Assembly (NCBI GenBank): GCA_016186645.1
Contig: JACPLF010000005.1
Span: 33,257 to 97,256 of the forward strand
Source: Candidatus Levyibacteriota bacterium
GTDB taxonomy: Bacteria > Patescibacteriota > Microgenomatia > Levybacterales > UBA12049
Direction of reading: 5' to 3'
DNA: 64,000 bases
In this document: positions 1,353-60,398 of the stretch, piece by piece
Layout: every line of letters begins with the position of its first letter
How positions within the stretch are numbered: position 1 is the stretch's first letter
Program-made: the position numbers and the translations under genes
Notes under the pieces: model-generated
Seen by the model: only the letters and a program-made list of their open reading frames with translations
The model's database searches: none
What the model was told of the DNA's origin: nothing

Positions 1353-2591
1353 ATGAATTTGGCGTATCGGATGAGACCTCAAAAATTGGAAGGATTTTTT
1401 GGACAGGAACATTTGGTTGGTGTTGATAAAATTCTTCGGAAAATGATTGAGCGAAAAACTCTTTTTTCCATGATTTTATGGGGACCTCCAGGGTCCGGCA
1501 AAACTACTTTGGCTTACATAATTTCCAAAAGTACTAATTCTGACTTCTATTCACTTTCCGCCGTTCAAACTGGAAAAGATGATCTCAGGAAAATTGTAGC
1601 CGCCGCACGAGAAAATCTTAAAAAAAACAAAAGGACTATTCTATTTATTGATGAGATTCACAGATGGAATAAGGCTCAGCAAGACGGGCTTTTACCCCAT
1701 GTTGAGTCCGGGTTAATAACCCTAATAGGCGCAACTACAGAAAATCCTTCTTTTGAAGTTATAAGTCCCCTCTTGTCCCGCTGTAGAGTTTTTGTTCTGA
1801 AAGGGCTTGATGAAAAATGTCTTGAGAAAATTTTGGATACTGCTTTGAGCAACAAAGAAAAAGGTCTGGGGAAATACAAAAAGAAAATTAACAAAGACGC
1901 AAAGGAATTACTAATTAGACTAAGCGGCCAGGATGCAAGAATCATGCTCAATGCTTTGGAAATTTCCGTAACAAATTTTAAAGGAAAAAGCCTGCCTGCC
2001 GGCAGGCAGGAAATTACCGCAGACACAATTAAAGAAGTTTTTCAAACTCGCAGCGCAGGCCTTTACGATAAAAAAGCAGATGAACATTACAATATAATCA
2101 GCGCTTACATAAAATCTATGAGAGGATCTGACCCGGATGCGGCTTTATATTATTTGGCCAGAATGTTGGAAAATGGAGAAGATCCGAAATTTATTGCAAG
2201 ACGCATGATAATATTGGCCTCCGAAGATGTCGGACTTGCTGACAGGGGAGCGCTCATTCAGGCAAATGCTGCGTTTGAGGGAGTAACAAAAATTGGCATG
2301 CCGGAGGCCCAACTCATTTTGGCCCATGCAACGCTGTATTTGGCAACAGCCAAAAAATCTAGAGAAGTCGCCAATGCATTAGGAAGGGCTAAAGAAGCAG
2401 TTTATGAATTTCCCAACGAATCCATTCCTCTTCATCTACGAAACGCCCCGACAAAACTTATGAAAGATTTGGGATATGCAAAAAATTATACCTGGAGCGA
2501 TAAATATGTCGGTCCGAAAAGTAATCTAAGTTTTCTTCCCGAAAGATTAAAAGGCAAAAAATTCTTCCACCCTGAGGAAAATAAAAAATAA
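1353..2591 (+). CDS. rarA: Replication-associated recombination protein A (AAA+ ATPase RarA/MgsA)
   Basis: Walker A motif GPPGSGKTT. MgsA-type C-terminal helical domain. 412 aa. Confidence 0.85.
1990..2009. repeat. Perfect 20-bp GC palindrome CCTGCCTGCCGGCAGGCAGG in frame within rarA (read as LPAGRQ)
   Basis: Self-complementary. Member of the CCTGCC...GGCAGG family. Confidence 0.7.
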
Positions 2592-3994: not shown

Positions 3995-4321
3995 TTGAAC
4001 AGTCCTTCAAATACCATGAGTCAATATAAAAAAATTAAGAAAGAATTAAAAAATAAGAAAGAGCTGGTTGCTTGCGCACAACAACTGGGAGTTGTTGGTG
4101 ATACAACAAGACTCAAGATTTGTTACCTCCTTTGTCATTATCCCGAAGTTTCTGTTGGTGAAATGGCAGAAATCTTGGATACTTCTGTCTCCGTTGTTTC
4201 CCATAGCGTAAAAAAGCTTTTAGAGCTTGAGCTTGTTACTAGAAGAAAAGAGGCACAAACAGTTTATTACTCACTTACCGATAACAACTTTGTCAAAACC
4301 TTGAAAGGTTTTATTGTCTAG
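3995..4321 (+). CDS. ArsR/SmtB family metalloregulator (likely regulator of the downstream mer-like genes)
   Basis: Winged HTH region TRLKICYLL...VGEMAEILDTSVSVVSHSVKKL typical of ArsR family. Confidence 0.8.
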   Translation: MNSPSNTMSQYKKIKKELKNKKELVACAQQLGVVGDTTRLKICYLLCHYPEVSVGEMAEILDTSVSVVSHSVKKLLELELVTRRKEAQTVYYSLTDNNFVKTLKGFIV

Positions 4322-7569: not shown

Positions 7570-9000
7570 ATGGAAGAATATGACTTGATTATTATCGGTG
7601 GAGGAGCGGGATCGTTTGCGGCTGCTATCAAGGCTAATGAGCTTGGCGCTAAAACCTTACTAATTAACAAAGTGTTACCGCTAGGCGGAACTTGCGTTAA
7701 TGTTGGCTGTGTTCCTTCTAAAACGCTTTTGTGGGCAGGAGAAGTGATGCACCTTGCCAAAAACCATAATATTCCGGGGATTGATATAGAAGTTAAAAAC
7801 TTTAATTTTGGCCAAGTCGTTCAGCATGAACTTGATCTAGTAGCAAAGTTAAGAGCTGAAAAATATGAGAAAGTCTTAAATGGTTTAGAAAATGTTACCC
7901 ACATAGAAGGTAGAGCTAGTTTTGTTTCCCCTAATGAAATTGAGGTTAATCCTTCGGCAAACTCAGGACAGGGTGGACAGAAATACACTTCTAAGAAATT
8001 TGTTATTGCCGCCGGATCAACAACTACAGTTCCACCGATTGAAGGTATTAAAGAGGTAGGATTTATAACTCATATTGAAGCCTTAAAATTTAAAGAACAG
8101 CCAAAAGAACTTATTATAGTTGGTGCAGGCCCTTTAGGCTTGGAATTTGCTCAAATGTATTCCAGATTTGGAACTAAAGTAACTATACTGCATAGAGGAT
8201 CATCTATTTTTCGGGGAGAAGAAGAACTAATCGCAAGACTTGCAGAAATACTAACACAAGAGGGAATTACTATTAAATTGAATGCTCGGGTAAAAAAGGC
8301 TTACAAAGAGGGAAATAAGAAAGTCTTAGTTTATAAGGAAGGAGACTTGTCCGCCGAAGCTTTAGCGAAGGCGGATGAAATACTACTCGCAACAGGTAAA
8401 ACTCCAAATACTCAAGAACTTAATCTTAACAAAGCAGGAGTAAATGTTGACGAAAAGCAAGCTATTAAAGTGACTTCGCAACTTCAAACTTCTCAACCAC
8501 ACATTTATGCAGTAGGTGATGTAATAAACTTACCTATAAGACAAGAACCAACAGCAGGCAGAGAAGGAACACTTGCTACAGAGAACGCCTTAAGTAATGC
8601 GCAAAATAGCATTGACTATAATACTGTTCCCTGGACTATCTTTACTGACCCGCAGCTTGCAGGAGTAGGGTTTACTGAAGAAGAGCAAATGAAAAGGTTC
8701 GACACTTGTATGTGTAAAACAGTATCGTTTAAAGATATTCCCAAAGCCATAATCATCAATCGAACCGAAGGACTGATTAAAATGGCAATTCATCCTGAAA
8801 CTAAACAGATTATGGGAGTGCATATCTTAGCTCCCAATGCAGGGGAACTAATTGCTCAAGCGATGGTACTTGTTAAAAATAAGAACACCATTGATGACGT
8901 CATAAATTCCTTACCGATGTTTCCCACACTCTCAGAAGCAATAAAAATTGTGGCCTTATCCTTCACTAAAGATATATCCAAGTTGAGCTGTTGTGTATAA
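7570..9000 (+). CDS. merA: Mercuric reductase MerA core (no NmerA domain)
   Basis: FAD site GGGAGS. Redox-active GGTCVNVGCVPSK. C-terminal vicinal cysteines ...KLSCCV, characteristic of MerA and distinguishing it from Lpd and glutathione reductase. Confidence 0.8.
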   Translation: MEEYDLIIIGGGAGSFAAAIKANELGAKTLLINKVLPLGGTCVNVGCVPSKTLLWAGEVMHLAKNHNIPGIDIEVKNFNFGQVVQHELDLVAKLRAEKYEKVLNGLENVTHIEGRASFVSPNEIEVNPSANSGQGGQKYTSKKFVIAAGSTTTVPPIEGIKEVGFITHIEALKFKEQPKELIIVGAGPLGLEFAQMYSRFGTKVTILHRGSSIFRGEEELIARLAEILTQEGITIKLNARVKKAYKEGNKKVLVYKEGDLSAEALAKADEILLATGKTPNTQELNLNKAGVNVDEKQAIKVTSQLQTSQPHIYAVGDVINLPIRQEPTAGREGTLATENALSNAQNSIDYNTVPWTIFTDPQLAGVGFTEEEQMKRFDTCMCKTVSFKDIPKAIIINRTEGLIKMAIHPETKQIMGVHILAPNAGELIAQAMVLVKNKNTIDDVINSLPMFPTLSEAIKIVALSFTKDISKLSCCV

Positions 9001-12851: not shown

Positions 12852-12973
12852 TCAAATTATTTTATCATAGAAGGGTATTGACATACTTTTGGATATATGT
12901 CTATACTAGTTTAGAGACCCGCCTTCGTCCGCCTCTGGCGGACTTCGGCGAGGCGAAGAAGGAGGTGATATAA

Positions 12974-22823: not shown

Positions 22824-22912
22824 ACCTATAAGAAAGTACCCGCCCGACTTCGCCTGCGACACCCGCTCGTTTCGATGACCTAATCGATTGGACAAAGTCA
22901 CTGGCGGGCGGG

Positions 22913-22941
22913 CTTGACAAACCTATAGTTCTGTGGTATAA
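22913..22941 (+). promoter_or_regulatory. Consensus sigma70-type promoter TTGACA-17 bp-TATAAT
   Basis: Perfect -35 and -10 hexamers with 17-bp spacing, upstream of the 23046 ORF. Confidence 0.55.
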
Positions 22942-23045
22942 TGTAAGTTAGATCCTAAGGTATGCCTTTCCAAATGCATACGTTAGGATTTTTTTATTGT
23001 GTCGCAACACAATAACCCGCCGATTCAGCGCTCTTTGCAGCGTGT

Positions 23046-23645: not shown

Positions 23646-23772
23646 CTTGTGTATAATAATCTTCAATCACCAGCGGACGTTACACGCGGACGTAGCGAAA
23701 ATGCCCGCCCGCAACGACTTCGCAAGCTCGTCTTGCGTGTCGGGCGGGGCAGACCTGCCCGACAGTGCCAAT

Positions 23773-23853: not shown

Positions 23854-23860
23854 CAGTCTT

Positions 23861-23930
23861 TGGCAGGCGGGCGCGCATGGTTTAGGACCATGTCCTTAAA
23901 GGGATGGAGGTTCAACTCCTCTCCGACCCA
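23861..23930 (+). pseudogene. Degenerate tRNA-Leu(TAG) copy: identical anticodon arm, D-loop deleted, 5' half replaced by GC-rich repeat sequence
   Basis: GCGCATGGTTTAGGACCATG is identical to the upstream tRNA. T-arm GGAGG-TTCAACT-CCTCT is present. No matching 5' acceptor strand. Confidence 0.4.
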
Positions 23931-29947: not shown

Positions 29948-31006
29948 ATGGAAGAAGAGTTGATGCAGATTAAAAATTCAGCGGTTTCAATGATAATTGA
30001 GGCCACGGATCAAAAAGAACTGGAAGAAATAAAACTTCAATTTTTGGGAAGATCAGGAAAATTAACTTCACTGTTTAAAGAAATTACGAAAGTTCCCATA
30101 GAAAGAAGGCGAGAAGTTGGTCAACTCGCCAATGACGTTAAAAATATAATTGAAGAAACCCTTCGGCTAGCTCAGGACAAGGTATCTGATCAAGAATCAC
30201 AATCCCGAAAAGAAAGTATAGACGTAACAGCGCCGGGAATAAAACCTCCAATCGGACACATACACCCTATGACACAAGTACTCTATGATGTGGTTGACAT
30301 ATTCAAAAAGATAGGATTCCAAGTCGCAGACGGACCCGAAATAGAAAGTGACTATTACAATTTTGAAGCACTTAATATCGCAAAAGATCATCCTGCCCGG
30401 GATACTCAACAAACTCTTTATTTAGATACAAGAAATAGTAAAATAAATCCTGGCGAAATAATTTTGAGGACTCAGACTTCTGCAATGCAAGGACGCGTAA
30501 TGGAAAAAGTAAAACCTCCGGTTCGTGTGATTGTTCCCGGAAAAAATTTTAGATATGAACAAGTCGATGCTTCTCATGGATTTGAATTTTGGCAGGTTGA
30601 AGGATTTATGGTTGACGAAAACGTAAGACTAACAGATTTATTCGGAACAATTGATTATGTTCTGAAGAAGTTGATGGGAGAAAGTACCAAATTAAAATTT
30701 GCAACAACTAACTTTCCTTTTGTTGAGCCGGGAGTTGATACATATATTGAGTGTACTGTTTGTAAGGGTAAAGCCCGCCTGCCGGACGGGCAGGGGTGCA
30801 GTTTCTGCAAACATAGCGGATGGAGCGAAATCATGCCGGCTGGAATGATTCATCCAAATGTCTTAAAAGCTGTTGGGTATGATAGTCAAAAAGTTTCAGG
30901 ATTTGCTTTCGCAATAGGCCTTTCCCGTCTCGTAACACTTCGCTATCAAATGGACGATTTGCGTTTGCTTACAAACCCGGATTTAAGAATCCTAAATCAA
31001 TTTTAA
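29948..31006 (+). CDS. pheS: Phenylalanyl-tRNA synthetase alpha subunit
   Basis: Class II motifs. FPFVEPG and GFAFAIGLSRL. Located upstream of pheT. Confidence 0.9.
   Translation: MEEELMQIKNSAVSMIIEATDQKELEEIKLQFLGRSGKLTSLFKEITKVPIERRREVGQLANDVKNIIEETLRLAQDKVSDQESQSRKESIDVTAPGIKPPIGHIHPMTQVLYDVVDIFKKIGFQVADGPEIESDYYNFEALNIAKDHPARDTQQTLYLDTRNSKINPGEIILRTQTSAMQGRVMEKVKPPVRVIVPGKNFRYEQVDASHGFEFWQVEGFMVDENVRLTDLFGTIDYVLKKLMGESTKLKFATTNFPFVEPGVDTYIECTVCKGKARLPDGQGCSFCKHSGWSEIMPAGMIHPNVLKAVGYDSQKVSGFAFAIGLSRLVTLRYQMDDLRLLTNPDLRILNQF
30778..30794. repeat. Palindrome CCTGCC-GGACG-GGCAGG in frame within pheS (read as LPDGQG)
   Basis: 6-bp arms with a 5-nt spacer. Same family. Confidence 0.65.
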
Positions 31007-31093: not shown

Positions 31094-33019
31094 ATGCTGG
31101 CACCTTTGTCTTGGTTAAAAGAATATGTAGACATAAAATTAACTCCCAAAGAATTGGGAGAAAAACTTACCGAAGTTGGACTTGGCGTTGAAAAAATTAC
31201 CAAAACTTCAGATGACACTATTTTTGAATTGGAAATAACTCCAAACCGCCCTGACTTACTTTCAATTATTGGAATTACTCGCGAAATTGCAGCAATTGAA
31301 AACCAGCCTGCCGGCAAGGCAGGTAAAAATATTAAATATCCCAAATTCAAAACCCAACTCAAACCAACTGCAAAAGTACTTCCACTAACTATCAAAACTG
31401 ATTCAAAAATTAACCCAAGATTTACAGGAATTATTATTTCGGGAGTAAAAGTAGGGGAATCCCCAAAATGGCTAAAAGACCGCTTAGAAAAAATGGGGCA
31501 GAGACCCATCAATAATATTGTTGATATTACCAATTATGTAATGCTGGAATTGGGCAATCCTATTCATGCTTTTGATTACGACAAAATTGCTGAACATATA
31601 ATGATAGTTTCTCAAACAAAAGGCGGGGAAAAATTTGAAAGCGTAGACGGAGTAACTTATCACCTTCCCAAAGATACGGTCGTAATATCTGACAAAGAAA
31701 AAATTATAGATCTTTGCGGGATAAAAGGGGGAAGAAATACAGGAACTTATGAGGATACAAAAACTATTTTTATCCGTGTTCCTGTTGAAATCTCAAATTT
31801 AATAAGAAGAACATCTCTATCTCTTGGATTGAGAAGTGAGGCATCAAGTATTTTTGAGAGAGGAGTTAATGCCGGCGGTACAATTGATGCTTTGAAAAGA
31901 ACAGTTGATTTGGTTTTGGAATTGGCAGGCGGAGAAGTCGCAAGCGAACTTTATGATATAAAAAAAGAATATTTTAAACCTTGGAAATTAGAACTAAGAG
32001 TAAAAAGATTAAACCAAATTTTAGGCATTGAAATTCCAACAAAAAAAATTCTGGAGATTTTAGGATCACTCAATCTTTCACCCATACACCTTCCAGGTGA
32101 ACGGAAACGACACCTGGAAGGTGAAACGGTTATTGAATGTGCCATTCCAACCTACAGAAATGATTTAAAAATCGAAGAAGATTTGATTGAAGAAATTGCC
32201 CGAATTTATGGTTATAATAATTTTCCCAAAACAATGCCGGGAGGTACAATCCCAACAAAACAAATTCCATATTTCAAAGATTACAGACTTGATGAGAAAG
32301 TAAAAAATATTTTAAAAGCAAGCGGTTTTTCAGAAATTTATACCTACAGCTTGATAAGCGAAAAAGATTTAATAGAGGCGGGCATTAATTCTCAAAATGT
32401 TCTCCGCGTTGATAATCCGGTAAGTCGTGACTTCGAATATCTGCGTCCAACACTTAAAACTAATTTATTGAAAGCTCTGTCTCAAAATAAGTCTAACTTT
32501 GAAAAAATTAATCTTTTTGAATTAGGAAAAGTTTACAACGGAAAAAATTTAGATGAGGCAGAAGAAAATTATTTTCTCTCTGGGATTTCAAACTCTAAAT
32601 CATATTTTGAAGTTAAAGGAATGCTTGAAAAAATCTTTGAAGACTTAGGAATCAAAGAAGATCCAACAAGATATATTGAGATCTTGAACGAAAGAATTTT
32701 CTTTGAATTAAATTATTCAGAGCTTATTAAGAAAATAAATCCTGATAAAAAATTTATTCCTCTACCAAAATATCCGCCTATCGTAGAAGATTTATCAATA
32801 ATTTCAGACGCAAAAACTAGTGAGATTATTGATGAAATAAAAAAACAAAGTTCTATTATTGTTAATGTTTCACTTTTGGATCAGTTTGAAGATTCAAGAA
32901 CTTTTCATATTGTCTACCAAGATGAAAATAAAAACTTAACAGGAGAAGAAGTTGCTAAAATCCGCGAAAAACTCCTCAAGAGTCTTAAAGAAAAGTTCAC
33001 CGCCAGACTAAGGGAATAG
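31094..33019 (+). CDS. pheT: Phenylalanyl-tRNA synthetase beta subunit (short form)
   Basis: B3/B4 and B5 domain region. C-terminal FDV-like domain. Synteny with pheS. Confidence 0.85.
   Translation: MLAPLSWLKEYVDIKLTPKELGEKLTEVGLGVEKITKTSDDTIFELEITPNRPDLLSIIGITREIAAIENQPAGKAGKNIKYPKFKTQLKPTAKVLPLTIKTDSKINPRFTGIIISGVKVGESPKWLKDRLEKMGQRPINNIVDITNYVMLELGNPIHAFDYDKIAEHIMIVSQTKGGEKFESVDGVTYHLPKDTVVISDKEKIIDLCGIKGGRNTGTYEDTKTIFIRVPVEISNLIRRTSLSLGLRSEASSIFERGVNAGGTIDALKRTVDLVLELAGGEVASELYDIKKEYFKPWKLELRVKRLNQILGIEIPTKKILEILGSLNLSPIHLPGERKRHLEGETVIECAIPTYRNDLKIEEDLIEEIARIYGYNNFPKTMPGGTIPTKQIPYFKDYRLDEKVKNILKASGFSEIYTYSLISEKDLIEAGINSQNVLRVDNPVSRDFEYLRPTLKTNLLKALSQNKSNFEKINLFELGKVYNGKNLDEAEENYFLSGISNSKSYFEVKGMLEKIFEDLGIKEDPTRYIEILNERIFFELNYSELIKKINPDKKFIPLPKYPPIVEDLSIISDAKTSEIIDEIKKQSSIIVNVSLLDQFEDSRTFHIVYQDENKNLTGEEVAKIREKLLKSLKEKFTARLRE
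31307..31323. repeat. Palindrome CCTGCC-GGCAA-GGCAGG in frame within pheT (read as PAGKAG)
   Basis: Same family. Confidence 0.7.
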
Positions 33020-33651: not shown

Positions 33652-34439
33652 CCCCCCGATTACACCCCGCCCTCCGATTACACCCCGAGGGTGTTTGCCG
33701 TTGACACCTGAGGAAATTTGTGATTTACTGACCATATGCCTTCAAGAATAATTCCTTTTGTAAACGGTGAATATTACCACATTTTTAATAGAGGCGTAGC
33801 CAAAATGCAGATATTTAATAATTTCTATGATTACAATCGTTTCGTAAAAACGATGATTTATTATTCAATTGAAGGACCCAAGCCAAGATTTTCAGTTTTC
33901 ACCCCAACCATATCAATATTGAACATAAATAAGAAAATCGTCGATATTATTTGTTATTGCCTCATGCCTAATCATTTCCATTTCCTCTTGCGTCAGGTCA
34001 AAAAAGGCGGCATTACAGAATTCGTAAGCAGACTCAGTAATAGTTATACAAAATATATCAACATTAAAAATAAAAGAGTTGGTCCTTTATTGCAAGGGAA
34101 TTTTAAGGCTGTTCACGTAGAGACAAACGAACAGCTCCTGCATCTTTCACGATATATTCATCTAAACCCTCTTGTAAGCTATGTCGTAAAAGATTTAGAT
34201 ATCTATAAATGGTCATCCTATCTTGAATATATCGATCTAATTAATAATGGGATCTGCGATAAAAAAATAATACTGGATCAATTTAAGTCTCCTAAAGAAT
34301 ATAGGCAATTCGTTTTAGATCAAGAGAGTTATGGAAAAAAACTAGAAGCGATAAAGCATCAGCTTTTGGATTTGGAGGCGTAATTCCTATGTGCAATCGT
34401 AAGACACCCCGAGGGTGTAAACGGAAGGTGTAAACGGAA
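33652..34439 (+). mobile_element. REP-associated tyrosine transposase (RAYT/IS200-like) unit with flanking hairpin and tandem terminal repeats
   Basis: Identical 15-mer hairpin ACACCCCGAGGGTGT at 33680-33694 and 34404-34418. Tandem CCGATTACACCCC x2 on the left. Tandem GGTGTAAACGGAA x2 on the right, an imperfect inverse of the left repeats. Confidence 0.55.
33736..34383 (+). CDS. REP-associated tyrosine transposase (Y1 HUH transposase, IS200-like)
   Basis: HUH motif MPNHFHFLL. RYIHLNPL...YKWSSY resembles the RayT YIHxNPV...YPWSS catalytic Tyr region. Confidence 0.7.
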   Translation: MPSRIIPFVNGEYYHIFNRGVAKMQIFNNFYDYNRFVKTMIYYSIEGPKPRFSVFTPTISILNINKKIVDIICYCLMPNHFHFLLRQVKKGGITEFVSRLSNSYTKYINIKNKRVGPLLQGNFKAVHVETNEQLLHLSRYIHLNPLVSYVVKDLDIYKWSSYLEYIDLINNGICDKKIILDQFKSPKEYRQFVLDQESYGKKLEAIKHQLLDLEA

Positions 34440-38294: not shown

Positions 38295-40334
38295 ATGAAC
38301 CTTCAGATGCCAGTTGAGAAAGCCGGAAGGATATATAAAATGTATGCACGGCGCCTTGAAAAATTGGGCATAAAAACTTTTGAAGATTTCTTGTATCACA
38401 TCCCAAGCCGCTATGATGATTTTTCTTTAATCTCAAAAATCAACAGAGTCCAGCCCGGCGAAGTGGTTACTATTCAGGGTACTGTTTCTGAAATAAATAA
38501 TGAATTTACAAAAAATTTCAAAAAACTGCAAAGAGCAGAGATTGCAGATGACACCGGCACTATCGAAGTTGTGTGGTTTAATCAGCCTTATCTAACAAAA
38601 GTTATTAACAAAAACGACAAAATTTCTCTATCTGGAACTGTAGATTGGTTTTCAAGAAAATTAGTCATGCAGTCTCCGGAATATGAGATATTAAACGACT
38701 CACCAACAATTCACACCGGAAGATTAGTGCCTGTATATCCTGAAACTCGGGGAATAACATCCAAATGGCTTAGAAGACAGGTATATAAATTGATTAAAGA
38801 AAACCTTCAAACATTTGTCGAATATCTTCCCGATCAAATTATTAACGAGCATTCCCTGATAAAATTTGACGCCGCAATTAAACATATTCACTTCCCGCAA
38901 AATAAAGAATTGGCTGAAAAGTCAAAAAAAAGACTGTCATTTGATGAACTTTTCCTTTTACAGCTCTCTAGCCTGGAGAGAAAATTAAACTGGAATAAAA
39001 CTTTGGTGAGCAATCCATTTTCTGTAGATAAATTTAAAAATGAAACTGAAAATTTTTTAAACAGATTACCATTCAAATTAACAAGCGCTCAAAAAAGAGT
39101 AGTTGAAGAAATATTTAAAGATTTATCGAAATCCAAACCTATGAATAGGCTATTGGAAGGAGATGTCGGATCGGGAAAAACAGTTGTATCAGCAATAGGG
39201 ATGTATTTGGCTTTTTTAAACGGCTTTCAATCTGTTCTTATGGCTCCTACAGAAATTCTGGCTCAGCAGCATTACAAAACAATCTCAAAATTACTAGAAC
39301 CTTTTGGAATTAAAATTGGATTTGCAACCGGAAGTACAAAAACTAAATTAAAAAAATTTGATGTCATGGTCGGAACTCATGCTGTTTTAGAAAAGGGAAT
39401 TAACTTTGAAAAATTAGGACTTGTTGTCATTGACGAACAGCAAAGATTTGGGGTCGAGCAAAGAGCGATAATACGAAGCCGAGGTAAAAACCCTCACCTC
39501 CTTACTATGACAGCAACACCAATCCCCCGAACAATTGCATTAACTTTGTATGGAGATTTGGATCTTTCGATTCTGGATGAAATGCCTATTGGAAGAAAAC
39601 AAATCAAAACCTGGCTTGTGCCCCCGGAAAAACGTCTTAATGCTTATGCATGGATTGAAAAAGAAATTAAAACAACAAAAAGCCAGGTATTTATAGTTTG
39701 CCCTTTTATTGAAGAATCGGAAACTATGCAGACTGTGAAAGCGGCAAACAAAGAATTTGAATATTTGCAAAAAAATGTCTTCAAAAACCCGCCTGCCGGC
39801 GAGGCAAGCCTAAAACTTGGACTTTTGCACGGAAAAATGAAAGCAAAAGAAAAAGAAGAGGTTTTGACTAAGTTTAGGGATGGAAAAATTGATATTTTGG
39901 TTGCAACTCCTGTTGTTGAGGTTGGAATTGACATTCCAAATGCAGCAATTATTGTGATTGAAGCAGCAGAGCGTTTTGGTCTTGCGCAATTACATCAACT
40001 TCGAGGAAGAGTAGGAAGAGGAGATAAACAATCTTATTGCCTATTATTTACAGAGTCAAAGAATCCGCAGACTCTTGAACGATTAAAAGCCATGGAAAAG
40101 CATAATTTTGGCGCAGAATTAGCAGAACTGGATTTAAAGCTTAGAGGACCTGGGGAAATTTATGGAACCATGCAGCATGGCCGAAAATTCCTCAAAATCG
40201 CAAGTTTTTACGATCTGGATTTGATAAAGAGAGTTAGATTGGCTGCTGAAAAAATATTTCCAGACCTAAATAGATATCCTAAGCTTTCAGAAAAATTAAA
40301 AACCATAAATCTCAAAAAAGTCTCTCCCGATTAG
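38295..40334 (+). CDS. recG: ATP-dependent DNA helicase RecG
   Basis: Wedge domain. Helicase motifs GDVGSGKT, DEQQRFG and TATPIPRT. Confidence 0.9.
   Translation: MNLQMPVEKAGRIYKMYARRLEKLGIKTFEDFLYHIPSRYDDFSLISKINRVQPGEVVTIQGTVSEINNEFTKNFKKLQRAEIADDTGTIEVVWFNQPYLTKVINKNDKISLSGTVDWFSRKLVMQSPEYEILNDSPTIHTGRLVPVYPETRGITSKWLRRQVYKLIKENLQTFVEYLPDQIINEHSLIKFDAAIKHIHFPQNKELAEKSKKRLSFDELFLLQLSSLERKLNWNKTLVSNPFSVDKFKNETENFLNRLPFKLTSAQKRVVEEIFKDLSKSKPMNRLLEGDVGSGKTVVSAIGMYLAFLNGFQSVLMAPTEILAQQHYKTISKLLEPFGIKIGFATGSTKTKLKKFDVMVGTHAVLEKGINFEKLGLVVIDEQQRFGVEQRAIIRSRGKNPHLLTMTATPIPRTIALTLYGDLDLSILDEMPIGRKQIKTWLVPPEKRLNAYAWIEKEIKTTKSQVFIVCPFIEESETMQTVKAANKEFEYLQKNVFKNPPAGEASLKLGLLHGKMKAKEKEEVLTKFRDGKIDILVATPVVEVGIDIPNAAIIVIEAAERFGLAQLHQLRGRVGRGDKQSYCLLFTESKNPQTLERLKAMEKHNFGAELAELDLKLRGPGEIYGTMQHGRKFLKIASFYDLDLIKRVRLAAEKIFPDLNRYPKLSEKLKTINLKKVSPD
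39792..39808. repeat. Palindrome CCTGCC-GGCGA-GGCAAG (one mismatch) in frame within recG (read as PAGEAS)
   Basis: Same family. Confidence 0.6.
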
Positions 40335-40359: not shown

Positions 40360-40379
40360 AATCCACCCTAGGGTGGATT
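40360..40379. terminator. Perfect 20-bp palindrome AATCCACCCTAGGGTGGATT after recG, followed by a T-run; REP-like or terminator
   Basis: Perfect dyad. Core CACCCnnGGGTG resembles the RAYT-flanking hairpin. Confidence 0.35.
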
Positions 40380-49507: not shown

Positions 49508-49544
49508 TGAGCGAAGCCGCGTTTGACGCGGCGAAGCCGAATCT

Positions 49545-49796
49545 ATGAAAAAAGCATTAGAATACATTGTCACTCAAATCGTTGATGACCCCGAGAAGGT
49601 AGAAATTTTTGAAACAGAAGATAACGGCATGATAAATTTCGCTATTTCTGTCGCTCCTTCCGACATGGGTAAGATTATTGGCAAAAATGGTAAGATAATA
49701 AGAGCCATAAGAAATGTTGTTAAAATAGCTGCAATAAAACAAAACAAGAAAATAAATATCGCGCTGACCGAAACCACGTCTTCCCAGCTTCTATGA
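49545..49796 (+). CDS. KH-domain RNA-binding protein (UPF0109)
   Basis: IGKNGKIIRAIRNVV GxxG KH motif. Conserved position between rpsP and trmD. Confidence 0.8.
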   Translation: MKKALEYIVTQIVDDPEKVEIFETEDNGMINFAISVAPSDMGKIIGKNGKIIRAIRNVVKIAAIKQNKKINIALTETTSSQLL

Positions 49797-50566
49797 ATAT
49801 CTCGATCCTGACTCTTTTCCCCGAAATGTTCCAAGGTCCTTTTGACTATTCCATTATAAAAAACGCGAAAGTGCAAAAGAAAGTTGATATTGAATTTATA
49901 AATATTCGGGATTTCGGTATCGGAAAACATAAAGTTGTTGACGATAAACCTTATGGAGGAGGAATTGGTATGATATTAAGAGTTGATGTCCTGGAGAAAG
50001 CAATTTCTGAAACAAAAGACCTGCCCGCCATCAGCTCGCGCCGAAGGCAAGCGCAGGCGGGCAAAAGACCCGCTTCGCCCGCCCAGACCCGGCGAGGCTG
50101 GCCGCGAGGCGAGCTAACGACTAAAGACCAAAGGGTAATTCTTCTAAGTCCCCATGGGAAAACTTTTAATCAGAAAAAAGCCTTGGAGCTTTCCCGCCTC
50201 AAACATCTTATTCTTGTATGCGGACGTTATGAGGGAATTGATGAAAGAGCAAAAGAATTTATAGACGAAGAACTGTCCATTGGAGACTTCGTGGTTACTG
50301 GCGGAGAAATTCCGGCAATGCTGGTCGTAGATGCTGTGGTAAGACTTATTGATGGCGTCCTAAAGAAAGGCGTGACAACTTCGGAGTCTTTTTCGCCAAT
50401 TCTAGAATACCCACAATACACCAAGCCCAATGCTTTCAAAAACTTAGACGTTCCTCCTATTCTCCTCAGCGGAGATCATAAGAAAATAAAAGATTGGAGA
50501 GATAATGAAGCGCTCATTATAACTAATAAACTTCGCCCTGATCTACTTAGCCGGAAAAAATCTTAA
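49793..50566 (+). CDS. trmD: tRNA (guanine37-N1)-methyltransferase TrmD carrying an in-frame GC-rich insertion of about 32 aa
   Basis: FPEMF, DKPYGGG, LVCGRYEGIDER and GGEIPAM motifs. Inserted segment PAISSRRRQAQAGKRPASPAQTRRGWPRGELT is encoded by 50019-50114. Confidence 0.85.
   Translation: MNISILTLFPEMFQGPFDYSIIKNAKVQKKVDIEFINIRDFGIGKHKVVDDKPYGGGIGMILRVDVLEKAISETKDLPAISSRRRQAQAGKRPASPAQTRRGWPRGELTTKDQRVILLSPHGKTFNQKKALELSRLKHLILVCGRYEGIDERAKEFIDEELSIGDFVVTGGEIPAMLVVDAVVRLIDGVLKKGVTTSESFSPILEYPQYTKPNAFKNLDVPPILLSGDHKKIKDWRDNEALIITNKLRPDLLSRKKS
50019..50114. repeat. GC-rich (about 70% GC) palindromic element inserted in frame in trmD
   Basis: Starts ACCTGCCCGCC and contains the inverted repeat TGCCCGCC/GGCGGGCA. 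Related copies at 22838-22912, 23672-23770 and 53704-53777. Confidence 0.6.
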
Positions 50567-52854: not shown

Positions 52855-53799
52855 CTAATTGGCCACAAAAAGGCCATACGATAGATAAGGCAGATAAGTC
52901 TGTGAATATCCCTCAAATGCAACTATCTTAATGGTTGACGATCCGGATGTTCCGGTTGAAGTGATCATATATCCCTGAGAAGGCAAAGATGTGCAATTGT
53001 TTCCCGCATGATTACAAGCATATACTCCGACCACAGCGTCTTTATAAATCGGAATCACTCTCATAAAAACAATGTCATTAACTCCTTTTGCAAGATCGCT
53101 GTTTGCTCCTGTTTCCGGTGTCCTATTTCCAAAAGTGAAGTTTGAAATTCCTGTGACGGTAAAACTTCCTGAATCAGCTTGAGTAAAATTGTTTACTGAG
53201 ATTCGTGCGGGACAGCTATCATAGGCATAACGATAAGATTTTATTTCTCCTGTATTTTTATTTCTTAGAATTACTATTGCCTGAATCGCAGCAGGAGCTG
53301 TTGACGTACCGCATGCCTCCTGGGGAGTACCCCAATATAAATGCAGAAAATTGGGAGACAGAGCAGAAGAATAATCCGGGGTACCATCTGCATTATGATT
53401 GACAAACCAAACATCGGCTCCCTCGTCTTTTGGGACAGCATTGCCTCCGTTTATTAAAAAACTGGAGCTTTGAATCTGCGTGAATTGAGTGGCATAACTA
53501 GAGTTATTGCTTGGATTATTTCCCTGTACTGCTATAGGAACAGAACCCTGTATTGCTCGCTCTATTCCTGCTTCTGCGGCAGCCAAAGCTTTTTGAGATT
53601 CTGCTTCTTCGGTTGAAGTCCTAAGGCTCGTAATGCTTCTTGAGGCAAGAGTAAGACCTATAGTTGATGCTATTATAATAACCAGAATAACTATCAAAAG
53701 AATCTGCCCGCCTTGACTCTCGCATCGCGCTCGCCTCGATTCGGCGAAGCGGGGCGAAGCGGGCGGCGAGGCAGGGCTCTTTTCTTTCCGCTCAGACAT
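52855..53799 (-). CDS. Pilin-like secreted protein (divergent N-terminal hydrophobic helix); N-terminus encoded by a GC-rich repeat
   Basis: GQILLIVILVIIIASTIGLTLA helix after a charged leader. No canonical GFTLIE motif. Confidence 0.35.
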   Translation of the reverse strand: MSERKEKSPASPPASPRFAESRRARCESQGGQILLIVILVIIIASTIGLTLASRSITSLRTSTEEAESQKALAAAEAGIERAIQGSVPIAVQGNNPSNNSSYATQFTQIQSSSFLINGGNAVPKDEGADVWFVNHNADGTPDYSSALSPNFLHLYWGTPQEACGTSTAPAAIQAIVILRNKNTGEIKSYRYAYDSCPARISVNNFTQADSGSFTVTGISNFTFGNRTPETGANSDLAKGVNDIVFMRVIPIYKDAVVGVYACNHAGNNCTSLPSQGYMITSTGTSGSSTIKIVAFEGYSQTYLPYLSYGLFVAN

Positions 53800-53908
53800 A
53801 CATATTTAGCATAACAAGTGCTTTATATTATTGTCAACCTCATGGTTCTTGCCCCGTAACATCGCCCTTGCGACGCGTGCACGTAGAGCACGGGAGCAAG
53901 TAAGATTG

Positions 53909-58323: not shown

Positions 58324-59274
58324 GTGAAAAAGCTTATATTAATCGACGGCAACGCTATCTTGCACAGGGCGTATCATGCCCTGCCTCCTTTGACTAACAA
58401 AAATGGAATTGTGGTTAACGCTGTTTATGGGTTTTTCTCAATGTTTCTTAAGATTCTGGAGGATCAAAAGCCTGATTTTATAATAGTCTGTTTTGACAAA
58501 AAAGCCCCGACTTTCCGCAAAGAATTATTTGTCGGTTATCAGGCAAAACGTCCTAAGATGTCAGATGAGCTAATTCCGCAAATCAAATTTGTCCATGATA
58601 TTTTGGAAAGGGCAAAAGTTGAAATTTTTGAAATTGACGGATATGAAGCAGATGACATGATAGGTACGATAGCCTATCAAACTCAAAACTCAAAACTCAA
58701 AACTCAAAACATAGAAACGTTGATTGTTTCAGGAGATCGGGATTTGCTGCAGCTTGTTAATCATCATGTCAAAATGATCGCGCCGATTACAGGTTTGACC
58801 AACATGATTGTTTATGATGAAGCTTTGGTTTTTCAAAAATATGGGATTAAACCTTCCCAAATGGTTGATTACAAAGCGCTGGTTGGAGATCCGTCAGATA
58901 ATTATCCTGGCGTAGCAGGAATTGGTCCCAAAACCGCGTCGACCCTTATTAATCAATACAAAAACCTGGAAAATATATATAAAAATTTGGAAAAAATCAA
59001 AGCCAAAAATCCAAATCTTGCTTTAAAACTTGCAGAAGGTGCGGAAGCTGCAGGACTTGCGCAAAAACTGGCGGGAGTTGTTTTGGACGCCCCGATAACT
59101 TTGGATATTGAAAAATCAAGCATAAAATTTTTTGATAAAGAAGGTCTGAAGAAGGAATTTGAGAAATTCGGCTTCAAAAGCTTGTTAAAGCGATTAAGCG
59201 ACCCGCGACCCGCCTTCGCCAAGGCTTCTGCGGGCAAAGAAAAACCAGAAGCAGAACAGATGGGACTATTATGA
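58324..59274 (+). CDS. 5'-3' exonuclease (Pol I N-terminal FEN-like nuclease domain only)
   Basis: LILIDGNAILHRAYHA and GYEADDMIGT motifs. HhH region GIGPKTA. Confidence 0.85.
   Translation: MKKLILIDGNAILHRAYHALPPLTNKNGIVVNAVYGFFSMFLKILEDQKPDFIIVCFDKKAPTFRKELFVGYQAKRPKMSDELIPQIKFVHDILERAKVEIFEIDGYEADDMIGTIAYQTQNSKLKTQNIETLIVSGDRDLLQLVNHHVKMIAPITGLTNMIVYDEALVFQKYGIKPSQMVDYKALVGDPSDNYPGVAGIGPKTASTLINQYKNLENIYKNLEKIKAKNPNLALKLAEGAEAAGLAQKLAGVVLDAPITLDIEKSSIKFFDKEGLKKEFEKFGFKSLLKRLSDPRPAFAKASAGKEKPEAEQMGLL
58679..58712. repeat. Tandem heptanucleotide repeat (AAACTCA) x4.5 inside the 5'-exonuclease CDS
   Basis: TCAAACTCAAAACTCAAAACTCAAAACTCAAAAC encodes QTQNSKLKTQN in a loop between conserved nuclease blocks. 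Confidence 0.7.
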
Positions 59275-60398
59275 ATATAGCCTTAGCGCATGATTACATC
59301 AAGGAGTATGGTGGTGCCGAGCGTGTTTTGGAAGCGCTGCATGAGATTTGGCCGGACGCGCCAGTTTTTACATCTGTTTATTTACCGGAATTTTTGGGTC
59401 CGCATAAAGAGAGATTTAAAAATTGGAATATCAGAACATCATGGTTACAGTTTTTGCCTTTTAAAAATAAGCTAATAAGCCCGATTCGGCTTATAGCACC
59501 TTTTGTGTTCAAAAGTTTTGATTTTTCTAAATTCGATGTGGTAATTGTTTCCGCCACTGGCGCATATGTTAAGCAATTTAAAATTAAAAATTTAAAATTA
59601 AAAATTGTGGAATATTGCCACACGCCGCCAAGGTATCTTTATGGTTATGCAACTGCAAGAGAATGGAAAAATAATTTAATTTTTAGAGTTTTTGGAGAAA
59701 TTGCGAATCATTTTTTGCGCCTTGTGGATTTTAAGTCTAGCCAAAATGTAGATTTTTTCATCGCAAATTCCCACAATGTAGCGGGAAGAATTAAAAAGTT
59801 TTACAGGAAAGATTCAAGTGTGATTTACCCACCCGCCATGCAAGACAGCTTGCTGGCGTTACGGGCAGGTCCGCCATCTACTCCTTACTTCCTCGCAGGA
59901 GGAAGAATTGCGAGGCCAAAACACATTGATTTGATAATTAAAACTTTTGGAAAATTAGATTTACCACTTAAGGTTTTTGGAAGAGGGTTTGCAGGGGCAG
60001 ATTTAAGTTCCAAAAATTCCAACATAGAATTTCTCGGGGAAGTGAGCGATGAAGAGAAAATAAAGTTAATGAGAAATGCGAAGGCTTTTGTTTTTGCCGC
60101 CGAAGATGAAGATTTTGGAATAACTCCGGTTGAGGCAATGTCAGTTGGCACGCCAGTTATCGCCTTTGCGTCAGGAGGAATTTTGGAAACGATAATTGAC
60201 GGGCAGACGGGAGTTCTTTATTACTTTAATGATTTAAACCTGCCTGCCGGCAAGGCAGGTCATTTAAGTGAAGCAATCCGTAAGTTTGAGAAAATGAAAT
60301 TTGACAGAGAGTTAATAATAAAACACGCGCAAAAATTTTCAAAAGAAAGATTCAGAAATGAGATTTTTGAATTCGTAAACTCAAAGTTTAAAAAGTAA
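59271..60398 (+). CDS. Glycosyltransferase family 4 (GT-B, group 1)
   Basis: C-terminal EDFGITPVEAMSVGTPVIA EX7E-like motif. Confidence 0.8.
   Translation: MNIALAHDYIKEYGGAERVLEALHEIWPDAPVFTSVYLPEFLGPHKERFKNWNIRTSWLQFLPFKNKLISPIRLIAPFVFKSFDFSKFDVVIVSATGAYVKQFKIKNLKLKIVEYCHTPPRYLYGYATAREWKNNLIFRVFGEIANHFLRLVDFKSSQNVDFFIANSHNVAGRIKKFYRKDSSVIYPPAMQDSLLALRAGPPSTPYFLAGGRIARPKHIDLIIKTFGKLDLPLKVFGRGFAGADLSSKNSNIEFLGEVSDEEKIKLMRNAKAFVFAAEDEDFGITPVEAMSVGTPVIAFASGGILETIIDGQTGVLYYFNDLNLPAGKAGHLSEAIRKFEKMKFDRELIIKHAQKFSKERFRNEIFEFVNSKFKK
60239..60259. repeat. Palindrome CCTGCCTGCCGGCAAGGCAGG in frame within the glycosyltransferase (read as LPAGKAG)
   Basis: Same family. Confidence 0.7.

What the first reader, a model, noticed from the sequence alone, without database searches (positions are those of the whole stretch)
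50019..50114. 96-bp GC-rich palindromic element inserted in frame in trmD, with related copies in intergenic DNA and in a pilin-like gene
trmD is otherwise AT-rich and alignable to canonical TrmD. It carries a roughly 70% GC block at 50019-50114 encoding PAISSRRRQAQAGKRPASPAQTRRGWPRGELT, between the conserved DKPYGGG and LLSPHG blocks, where E. coli TrmD has no such loop. The block begins with the same ACCTGCC-CGCC start as the mini-palindromes and contains the inverted repeat TGCCCGCC/GGCGGGCA. Sequence-related GC islands occur at 22838-22912 (CCCGCCCGACTTCGCC...GGCGGGCGGG), at 23672-23770 immediately 5' of tRNA-Leu(TAG), and at 53704-53777, where one provides the N-terminal SPASPPASPRFAESRRARCESQGG of the pilin-like protein. 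Together they look like a larger-form member of the same repeat family, able to sit in coding or noncoding DNA.
Basis: seen in the sequence. Interest (0 to 1): 0.75.

Follow-up and report, generated by a model that had tools for sequence, protein, structure and literature searches.

The report
Hairpin repeat insertions inside trmD
The GC-rich block in this Levybacteria (CPR) trmD gene is two neighbouring copies of a tiny 21-base hairpin repeat that has inserted, in frame and without duplicating its target, into several housekeeping genes; it resembles the "selfish DNA in genes" known from Rickettsia, but is much smaller.

Summary
Window 50020-50113 is 74% GC in a 37.6% GC window. It keeps trmD open and adds about 33 residues in a loop that solved TrmD structures lack.

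It is not one 96-bp element. It is two modules separated by 7 native bases: E1 (50020-50061, 42 nt) and E2 (50069-50113, 45 nt). Each module occurs alone at the same site in other Levybacteria trmD genes, and about 110 of the 120 closest homologues have neither.

Both derive from a 21-nt unit, CCNGCCTGCCGGCRAGGCAGG. This unit also sits in frame in PheS, PheT, RecG and a glycosyltransferase; a 20-nt copy lies in RarA, whose empty site was not checked. The window has 5 matches against 0.04 expected. Filled and empty sites show exact insertion, no target duplication and an A/G-rich 5' flank. The glycosyltransferase copy is unique among 120 homologues.

E1 stems are conserved at synonymous sites (0.85 against 0.41) and show a compensatory change.

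The best reading is a REP/RPE-like mobile hairpin family that enlarges by nesting. The mobilising enzyme is unknown: a RAYT-like gene lies in the window, but a different hairpin flanks it. The pilin-gene island is related. The two tRNA-side islands share only short words with the block.

The parts
49793..50566 (+). trmD (tRNA m1G37 methyltransferase), the host gene, 257 aa
   Evidence: ORF list; PDB phmmer E = 1e-61; NCBIfam TrmD 280 bits
50020..50061 (+). Module E1, a 42-nt insertion. It has unit-like termini CCTGCCCGCC...CAGGCGGG around a 24-nt interior and encodes LPAISSRRRQAQAG.
   Evidence: Found alone at the same site in P0002, P0008, P0021, P0035 and P0086. The empty site reads AAAGA|TAAAAGA. 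8-bp outer stem.
50062..50068 (+). Seven native trmD bases (YAAAAGA, part of codons G-K-R) between the two modules
   Evidence: The same bases are present in orthologues that have neither module or only one.
50069..50113 (+). Module E2, a 45-nt insertion encoding PASPAQTRRGWPRGE. It is the 21-nt form CCCGCTTCG-CAG-CGAGGCGAG with 24 extra bases in the loop.
   Evidence: The 21-nt form occurs alone at the same position in P0004 / L086.
1991..2010 (+). Unit copy (20 nt, perfect palindrome) inside the RarA/MgsA gene, read as LPAGRQ
   Evidence: No close orthologue was checked; the alignment to E. coli RarA is uninformative.
30774..30794 (+). Unit copy (21 nt) in PheS, in a different codon phase, adding ARLPDGQ
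   Evidence: Absent from the syntenic relative L169 (80% identical PheS). Junction TAAAG|unit|GGTG.
31303..31323 (+). Unit copy (21 nt) in PheT, adding QPAGKAG
   Evidence: Absent from L169. Junction GAAAA|unit|TAAAAAT.
39788..39808 (+). Unit copy (21 nt) in RecG, adding PPAGEAS
   Evidence: Present in 14 of 121 RecG sequences and patchy on the tree. The empty site reads TTTAAAAA|TTTAAAA.
60239..60259 (+). Unit copy (21 nt) in a GT4 glycosyltransferase, adding LPAGKAG
   Evidence: The only one of 120 homologues with an insert at this site.
53704..53782 (-). Composite GC-rich island that encodes part of the N-terminal leader of a PilX-like minor pilin. It carries E2-like and unit-like words.
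   Evidence: Relatives have a different hairpin or none at this spot. Similarity to E2. Unit match at 53759-53775. Weak PilX_N hit.
12916..12965 (.). Intergenic GC-rich hairpin island and the best local match to the trmD block (GACCCGCCTTCG...GGCGAGGC)
   Evidence: Local alignment z = 6.4; DNA fold z = -3.8.
22839..22912 (.). Intergenic island with CCCGCCCG/CGGGCGGG termini. Family membership is weak.
23704..23769 (.). GC-rich double hairpin directly 5' of tRNA-Leu(TAG). Family membership is weak.
59196..59239 (+). GC-rich hairpin in the C-terminal tail of a 5'-3' exonuclease gene (PRPAFAKASAGK)
   Evidence: No orthologue check was made.
8347..8376 (+). Hairpin TCCGCC-N14-GGCGGA in a mercuric-reductase-like gene. 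It adds about 6 residues relative to PDB 4ywo.
33680..34418 (+). RAYT-like Y1 (IS200-type) transposase gene (33736-34383) flanked on both sides by ACACCCCGAGGGTGT. It is a candidate mobilising enzyme, not a proven one.
   Evidence: tblastn 65% identity to L087, which has the Pfam Y1_Tnp hit. Flanking hairpins. NCBIfam REP_Tyr_transpos 44 bits, below the cutoff of 80.

Best explanation
The trmD block is selfish repeat DNA. It consists of two adjacent copies of a family of very short (21-nt unit) GC-rich hairpin elements, each copy enlarged internally.

Shown here:
- The unit CCNGCCTGCCGGCRAGGCAGG recurs in unrelated housekeeping genes of this genome.
- Filled and empty orthologous sites show that it enters as an exact block, with no target-site duplication.
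- In 5 of 6 cases the five bases just 5' of the copy (+ strand) are A/G-only and A-rich; for RarA and GT4 no empty-site DNA was compared.
- Occupancy of a given site is patchy among close relatives.
- All intragenic copies with an orthologue comparison are multiples of three bases long.

Inferred:
- The element moves as a single-stranded hairpin by a cut-and-paste or copy mechanism of the HUH/Y1 (IS200/IS605, RAYT) type.
- In essential genes, only in-frame copies in tolerant surface loops survive.
- Larger forms arise when a new copy lands in the loop of a resident hairpin (E1 = 21+21 nt, long E2 = 21+24 nt), or when copies land side by side at a hot spot (E1+E2 in this trmD).
- In TrmD the 33 extra residues are translated as a disordered surface loop between helix 64-75 and the strand that leads into the LLSPHG AdoMet loop.
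- The stems are kept complementary by selection or by intrastrand correction at the nucleic-acid level.
For: The family is real. There are 5 matches to the unit against 0.04 expected. The 21-mer in PheT and the one in GT4 differ at a single base and share an identical 18-nt core.

The copies are insertions and not ancestral sequence.
- TrmD: 6 of 120 homologues have E1 and 2 have E2.
- RecG: 14 of 121.
- PheS and PheT: absent in the syntenic relative L169.
- GT4: 1 of 120.

The junctions are exact, with no duplication and with A/G-rich 5' flanks. The background frequency of such a pentamer is 5.4%.

Occupancy is patchy on trees: E1 appears in at least 4 clades and the RecG insert in at least 8 places.

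The expansion is lineage-specific. In about 294 kb of related Levybacteria loci the unit is found only at the RecG site.

Simpler forms of both modules exist elsewhere (P0002 has E1 only; P0004 has the 21-nt E2).

The stems are conserved. Fourfold-site identity is 0.85 inside the E1 stems and 0.41 in the rest of trmD; GC3 is 0.87 against 0.32. The inner hairpins TCCCGA/TCGGGA and CCCCGA/TCGGGG differ by a compensatory pair.

The insert is modelled as coil with pLDDT below 50 and faces a gap in solved TrmDs.

A RAYT-like Y1 transposase gene is in the window.

Precedents exist: in-frame RPEs in Rickettsia and intragenic REPs (PMC10969869, PMC3733652).
Against: Nothing ties a transposase to the family. 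The RAYT-like gene is flanked by a different hairpin (ACACCCCGAGGGTGT) and scores below the NCBIfam RAYT cutoff.

Movement was not observed. Patchiness on weakly resolved NJ trees could reflect one gain plus repeated precise loss, or recombination between lineages.

Only 64 kb of the genome was available, so the copy number is small.

Stem conservation and compensatory change could instead mean the hairpins have a function.

Large-island folds are only modestly better than shuffles (z = -0.6 to -1.5 for E1 and E2 as DNA).

The A/G-rich target preference was noticed after the fact.

Translation of the insert is inferred from frame and length, not seen.
Confidence: 0.68

Rival explanations
1. 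The hairpins are functional nucleic-acid signals, for example protein-binding or DNA-uptake sequences, or mRNA structures that tune decay or translation. On this view they are retained by selection and are not selfish DNA.
For: Stems are conserved at synonymous sites and show a compensatory change. All unit copies have the loop GGCRA/GGAC on the + strand. Diverged RecG copies still form hairpins. Several hosts are DNA-repair genes (RecG, RarA, 5'-3' exonuclease), as reported for intragenic REPs (PMC3733652).
Against: The copies sit at arbitrary internal positions of unrelated genes and not at gene ends or regulatory sites. Most close relatives do well without them. The density, 5-6 per 64 kb, is low for an uptake signal. 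No Rfam family matches.
Confidence: 0.12
2. The palindromes are made locally by replication template switching or slippage at quasi-palindromes, and nothing moves between sites.
For: A separate 30-nt insert in PheT (32093-32122) builds its 13-bp stem partly from the pre-existing host flank CACCTT. E1 and E2 grow from the inside of the hairpin. Some orthologues carry a hairpin of unchanged length in the same trmD loop (TCCCGA-N4-TCGGGA).
Against: Near-identical 21-mers occur in unrelated genes whose flanks share no homology. The inserted bases are not inverted copies of the local sequence at the RecG, PheS, PheT or TrmD sites.
Confidence: 0.1
3. The segment is a lineage-specific functional loop of TrmD, selected at the protein level.
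For: The frame is kept open. Other CPR TrmDs carry unrelated inserts in the same loop (L008, L010).
Against: It is absent from about 110 of the 120 closest homologues. The encoding DNA is palindromic and is shared with other genes in two different reading frames. It is predicted to be disordered. Conservation is at the nucleotide level, including third codon positions.
Confidence: 0.04
4. The block is an assembly or sequencing artefact.
For: The exact 21-mer also turns up in unrelated viral contigs. A technical contaminant could produce that pattern.
Against: The identical protein appears in several independent assemblies. Orthologous copies have diverged codon by codon. Every intragenic copy with an orthologue comparison keeps the frame.
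Confidence: 0.01

Closest known systems
Rickettsia palindromic elements (RPE; Ogata et al. 2000, 2002; reviewed in PMC10969869)
   Same: A dispersed palindromic repeat family, inserted in frame in unrelated housekeeping genes that stay intact. Copies are absent from orthologues. They are thought to lie in surface loops. No transposase is known.
   Different: RPEs are about 100-150 bp and occur in Rickettsia. Here the unit is 21 nt, GC-rich in an AT-rich CPR genome, and larger forms are nested or adjacent composites. Sequence homology to RPEs was not tested.
REP/REPIN elements with RAYT transposases, including intragenic REPs (Di Nocera et al. 2013, PMC3733652)
   Same: Imperfect palindromes of 20-40 nt. 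Some copies lie inside genes, often repair genes. A RAYT-like Y1 transposase gene with flanking hairpins is present in the window.
   Different: There is no GTAG or CGTC tag. The canonical copies here are mostly intragenic, not extragenic. The RAYT-like gene is flanked by a different hairpin.
IS200/IS605-type single-strand 'peel and paste' transposition (from my own knowledge of the family)
   Same: Hairpin-bearing ends, insertion without target duplication next to a short specific sequence, and precise excision, which would explain patchy occupancy.
   Different: The element carries no gene and is far shorter. Recognition by a Y1 enzyme is untested.
Mobile GC clusters of yeast mitochondrial genomes (from my own knowledge; the topic is covered in PMC8811140, which I listed but did not read)
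   Same: Short GC-rich palindromes spread in a very AT-rich genome. They sometimes sit in frame in a coding gene and sometimes nest in one another.
   Different: That system is organellar and eukaryotic, with unrelated sequences.

Membership tests
RPE-like in-frame palindromic repeats | Dispersed multi-copy family recognisable by nucleotide similarity within one genome | tested here: met
   5 matches against 0.04 expected; copies aligned.
RPE-like in-frame palindromic repeats | Copies lie in frame inside intact protein-coding genes and are absent from orthologues | tested here: met
   TrmD, RecG, PheS, PheT and GT4.
RPE-like in-frame palindromic repeats | Element length of roughly 100-150 bp, encoding a conserved peptide of 30-50 aa | tested here: not met
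   The unit is 21 nt. The largest modules are 42 and 45 nt.
RPE-like in-frame palindromic repeats | Insertion at the protein surface, compatible with the fold | tested here: inconclusive
   The insert faces a gap in solved TrmDs. The AF2 model shows coil with pLDDT below 50, but the model overall is weak (mean 62).
RPE-like in-frame palindromic repeats | Sequence homology to the RPE-1 to RPE-10 consensus sequences | not tested
   No RPE consensus was available in the tools. The host is a Levybacteria (CPR) MAG.
REP / REPtron (RAYT-associated) | Imperfect palindrome of 20-40 nt | tested here: met
REP / REPtron (RAYT-associated) | GTAG or CGTC tetranucleotide tag at one end | tested here: not met
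   The unit and its flanks contain neither. Criterion from PMC3733652.
REP / REPtron (RAYT-associated) | Mostly extragenic, downstream of ORFs | tested here: not met
   All six canonical copies are intragenic. The looser GC islands are partly intergenic.
REP / REPtron (RAYT-associated) | RAYT gene flanked by copies of the same repeat | tested here: not met
   The gene at 33736-34383 is flanked by ACACCCCGAGGGTGT, not by the unit.
REP / REPtron (RAYT-associated) | A RAYT-class Y1 transposase is encoded in the genome | tested here: inconclusive
   The homologue in L087 passes the Pfam Y1_Tnp cutoff. The window protein scores 44 bits against an NCBIfam RAYT cutoff of 80.
MITE | Terminal inverted repeats plus a target-site duplication, length 70-300 bp | tested here: not met
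   No duplication at four filled/empty junctions; units are 21-45 nt.
IS200/IS605-type mobilisation (mechanism, not membership) | Insertion without duplication next to a short preferred sequence | tested here: inconclusive
   No duplication at four filled/empty junctions. 5 of 6 sites follow an A/G-only A-rich pentamer (background 5.4%), but this was noticed after the fact.

The most novel reading that the evidence does not exclude
An undescribed class of ultra-short (21-nt) GC-rich hairpin mobile elements in CPR bacteria and their phages. On this reading they insert precisely and without duplication at A-rich sites, probably as single-stranded DNA through an HUH/Y1 enzyme. They colonise essential genes in frame, reuse the same loops as hot spots, and grow by nesting. 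They would then be a steady source of new protein loops in some of the smallest bacterial genomes.
Probability: 0.3. Interest if true: 0.75.

Novelty: new variant of a known kind. Interest (0 to 1): 0.6.

Why it matters
CPR bacteria are usually described as streamlined and poor in mobile DNA. This window shows housekeeping genes (trmD, pheS, pheT, recG and a glycosyltransferase, with a likely copy in rarA) carrying hairpin insertions only 21 nt long. Surveys of their homologues show many other short hairpin-type inserts across Levybacteria.

There are three practical consequences. First, such inserts inflate and distort protein alignments, so annotation and phylogenomics of CPR genomes are affected. 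Second, they add disordered loops at recurrent sites, which bears on protein evolution. Third, they offer a tractable case for mobile-DNA biology: an exact, duplication-free insertion with empty and filled alleles in public metagenomes, and a candidate Y1 enzyme nearby.

Tried and rejected
- Whole-block local alignment of the 96 bp against each GC island gave only weak scores. The islands at 22830-22920 and 23665-23772 were not significant. Relatedness became clear only after the block was split using orthologues.
Only a handful of Levybacteria loci were useful.
- The AlphaFold model of TrmD was mediocre (mean pLDDT 62), so I did not run a fold search on it.
- The alignment of RarA to E. coli RarA could not decide whether the 1991-2010 copy is an insertion.
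- I tested whether the RAYT-like gene's own hairpins are the GC-rich family. They are not.
- Rfam gave only tRNAs.
- Literature searches for a CPR or Patescibacteria report of in-frame palindromic insertions found none. This library is incomplete, so absence is weak evidence.
- I considered and rejected a conserved TrmD domain, an artefact, a MITE and a CRISPR repeat. There are no arrays and no target duplications.

Full report
**1. The observation**

The window is 37.6% GC. The trmD ORF runs 49793-50566 on the + strand and encodes 257 aa. It is an ordinary TrmD: PDB matches reach E = 1e-61 and NCBIfam TrmD scores 280 bits.

Positions 50018-50119 are 74% GC. They stay in frame and encode DLPAISSRRRQAQAGKRPASPAQTRRGWPRGELT. 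In the alignment to S. aureus TrmD, query residues 72-109 face only five or six residues of the solved chain.

The inverted repeat TGCCCGCC/GGCGGGCA is present. The identical protein is called on 5 contigs, including four separate SRR assemblies and an NCBI MAG contig of 185 kb named Candidatus Levybacteria. The sequence is therefore real.

**2. The block is two modules, not one element**

I collected the 120 closest TrmD homologues. Nearly all are Levybacteria-like, 65-84% identical and typically 225 aa. About 110 have nothing at this site.
- Five carry only the first half: DLPAIGSGRRQVQAGK in P0002, with variants in P0008, P0021, P0035 and P0086.
- One, P0004, carries only a short version of the second half: RPASQRGE.

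DNA from six of these contigs (read) gives exact boundaries.
- The empty site reads AAA GAT AAA AGA CTA.
- E1 (42 nt, window 50020-50061) sits between GA and the next base.
- Seven native bases follow (50062-50068).
- E2 sits between AGA and CTA.
- E2 is 21 nt in P0004 (CCCGCTTCGCAGCGAGGCGAG). It is 45 nt in the window (50069-50113), and the extra 24 nt lie in the hairpin loop.

**3. Both modules derive from a 21-nt unit that has entered other genes**

Their hosts are RarA/MgsA, PheS, PheT, RecG and a GT4 glycosyltransferase. Put in register, the copies read CCNGCCTGCCGGCRAGGCAGG. The window has 5 matches with up to 3 mismatches, against 0.04 expected.

Comparison with orthologues shows that the copies are insertions.
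- RecG: 14 of 121 sequences have the 7-residue insert. The empty DNA reads TTTAAAAA|TTTAAAA and the filled DNA reads AAAAA-CCCGCCTGCCGGCGAGGCAGG-TTTG.
- PheS and PheT: the syntenic relative L169 lacks both. The junctions are TAAAG|unit|GGTG and GAAAA|unit|TAAAAAT.
- GT4: the window protein is the only one of 120 homologues with an insert at that position.

None of the four junctions with a known empty site has a target duplication. Five of six copies follow an A/G-only, A-rich pentamer, which has a background frequency of 5.4%. This preference was noticed after the fact; for RarA and GT4 the boundary comes from the unit consensus, because no empty-site DNA was compared.

The PheS copy is in a different codon phase from the others, yet it is also 21 nt. 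The shared feature is therefore the DNA, not the peptide.

The E1 termini, CCTGCCCGCC...AGGCGGG, are the unit termini with one T-A pair changed to C-G. The 21-nt E2 matches the RecG copy at 15 of 21 positions (my count from the sequences).

**4. Signs of mobility and of hairpin maintenance**

On neighbour-joining trees E1 appears in at least four separate TrmD clades. The RecG insert appears in at least eight places among empty relatives. The trees are weakly resolved, so this could mean repeated gain, repeated precise loss, or exchange between lineages.

In about 294 kb of related Levybacteria loci the unit occurs only at the RecG site, while this window has five or six copies in 64 kb. That points to a lineage-specific expansion.

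Among the six E1-bearing trmD genes, fourfold-degenerate sites are 41% identical across the gene (GC3 0.32). Inside the E1 stems they are 85% identical (GC3 0.87).

The inner part of E1 differs between orthologues, and in five of the six it forms a hairpin of its own (P0035 has none): TCGGC/GCCGA, TCCCGA/TCGGGA or CCCCGA/TCGGGG. The last two differ by a compensatory pair. Diverged RecG copies also keep a stem: TCCCGCC-TGAA-GGCGGGA in L171 and TCCGCC-AGAC-GGCGGA in L169.

**5. The other islands**

The pilin-like ORF (52855-53799, minus strand) has a weak PilX_N hit and lies next to pilM. Its GC island encodes part of the leader that precedes GQILLIV.
- Relatives have a different AT-richer hairpin there (L005), other GC hairpins (L006, L007) or nothing (L010, L012).
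- The island shares CCCGCTTCGCC...CGAGGCGAG with E2 (p = 0.013) and contains a unit-like stretch.

The intergenic island at 12916-12965 is the best match to the block (z = 6.4).

The islands at 22839-22912 and 23704-23769 do not align significantly. They share only CCCGCCCG-type termini and the word ACTTCGC, so I treat their membership as weak.

More hairpins lie in a mercuric-reductase-like gene (8347-8376; about 6 extra residues against PDB 4ywo) and in the tail of a 5'-3' exonuclease gene (59196-59239).

**6. Mechanism**

The best-supported reading is a selfish, non-autonomous hairpin repeat. It inserts precisely at A-rich sites and survives in essential genes only when it is in frame and in a tolerant loop.

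The TrmD insert is modelled as coil with pLDDT below 50, between helix 64-75 and strand 113-118, although the model is weak overall. Other CPR TrmDs carry unrelated inserts in the same loop (L008, L010).

Growth by nesting is inferred from the simple and expanded forms of E1 and E2.

The window holds a RAYT-like Y1 transposase gene (33736-34383). It is 65% identical to a homologue that passes the Pfam Y1_Tnp cutoff. It is flanked on both sides by the hairpin ACACCCCGAGGGTGT. Duplication-free insertion next to a short preferred sequence, and precise loss, are what IS200/IS605-type enzymes produce (my own knowledge). However, the flanking hairpin is not the GC-rich unit, and the NCBIfam RAYT score is below cutoff. 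I give the link to this enzyme only about 0.2.

**7. Rival explanations**

- Functional nucleic-acid signal. Supported by the stem conservation. Weakened by the arbitrary positions and by absence from most relatives.
- Local template switching. This is real for a separate 30-nt PheT insert whose stem uses the host flank. It cannot explain near-identical 21-mers in unrelated genes.
- A protein-level domain or an artefact. Both are very unlikely.

**8. Comparison with known systems**

In-frame palindromic repeats in housekeeping genes are known from Rickettsia (RPEs), and intragenic REPs are known from several bacteria. This case works like those. It fails the size criterion of RPEs, the GTAG/CGTC tag and REPtron criteria of REPs, and the duplication criterion of MITEs. 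My searches found no report of it in CPR bacteria, though that library is incomplete. I class it as a new variant of a known kind.

**9. Wider occurrence**

A scan of IMG/VR found the exact 21-mer pattern in 11 viral contigs, about 7 of them distinct.
- Most are GC-rich.
- Two related contigs carry it as a head-to-head dimer inside a 572-codon open reading frame.
- An AT-rich phage-like contig carries the RecG-type variant just after a stop codon.

Chance could explain a few of the GC-rich hits, by my rough estimate, but not the dimer. I did not test whether these hits are insertions.

Noticed in passing
window 33680-34418: A RAYT-like Y1 (IS200-type) transposase gene (33736-34383) is flanked on both sides by the identical hairpin ACACCCCGAGGGTGT, with a tandem GATTACACCCC repeat upstream. 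A 65%-identical copy in L087 has similar flanking repeats, and a possible third hairpin (CACCCTAGGGTG) lies at 40364 just after recG.
   Followed up: partly
window 32093-32122 (PheT): A 30-nt in-frame insert (PGERKRHLEG) is absent from L169. Its 13-bp stem CACCTTCCAGGTG/CACCTGGAAGGTG is built partly from the pre-existing host flank CACCTT. This looks like a template-switch product and not a family copy.
   Followed up: partly
window 23855-23924: Directly after tRNA-Leu(TAG) there is a GC element (GGCAGGCGGGCGCG), then an 81%-identical second copy of the 3' two-thirds of the tRNA. ARAGORN and Rfam do not call it. It may be a pseudo-tRNA or the remnant of an integration.
   Followed up: no
RecG homologues after window residue 354; GT4 homologues (proteins P0185-P0222, P0272-P0349): A second, AT-rich family of in-frame inserts recurs in about 20 of 120 RecG homologues and in several GT4 homologues. 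Typical peptides are QESRIKN...HNSQFIIHDS and KIRNPKSEIRN. From the peptide symmetry I infer palindromic DNA, but I did not read the DNA. Many further short GC-type inserts (PPDGEAK, PAGG, PAGRQGS, NPSAGSGRQK, VCHPERSEGS) pepper these families.
   Followed up: partly
L177:632-673 and L183:2003-2044; L178:3742-3762 and 4031-4072: The exact 21-mer occurs in IMG/VR viral contigs. One pair of related contigs carries it as a perfect head-to-head dimer inside a 572-codon open reading frame. An AT-rich phage-like contig has the RecG-type variant just 3' of a stop codon, plus another in-frame GC hairpin (QSPASPGGAPSR).
   Followed up: partly
L087, L172 and many 225-aa TrmD homologues (loop NPxxSGQ): In orthologues without extra length, the same trmD loop is often encoded by a hairpin TCCCGA-N4-TCGGGA (NPDESGQ, NPDTSGQ), where others read RLTTKDQ or KLNALKQ. 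A hairpin appears to have replaced sequence without changing the length.
   Followed up: no
L008:2746-3513 and L010:10001-10756: More distant CPR TrmDs carry unrelated 25-35-residue inserts at the same loop, with peptides such as ISHFVRNDK and SGQARMT.
   Followed up: no
window 7951-7974: The mercuric-reductase-like ORF has 8 extra residues (PSANSGQG) relative to PDB 4ywo. The peptide resembles the PSASSGRQ-type inserts seen in GT4 homologues. The DNA fold here is weak.
   Followed up: partly
window 49516-49539: A GC hairpin, GCCGCGT-TTG-ACGCGGC followed by GAAGCC, fills a 37-nt spacer between the S16 and KH-domain genes. Relatives have spacers of only 7-18 nt (L087, L169).
   Followed up: partly
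window 22913-22945 and 53810-53840: Near-consensus sigma-70-type promoters (TTGACA, spacer, TATAAT-like box) lie immediately beside two of the GC islands. The islands therefore sit between a gene end and the next promoter, or inside a 5' leader.
   Followed up: no
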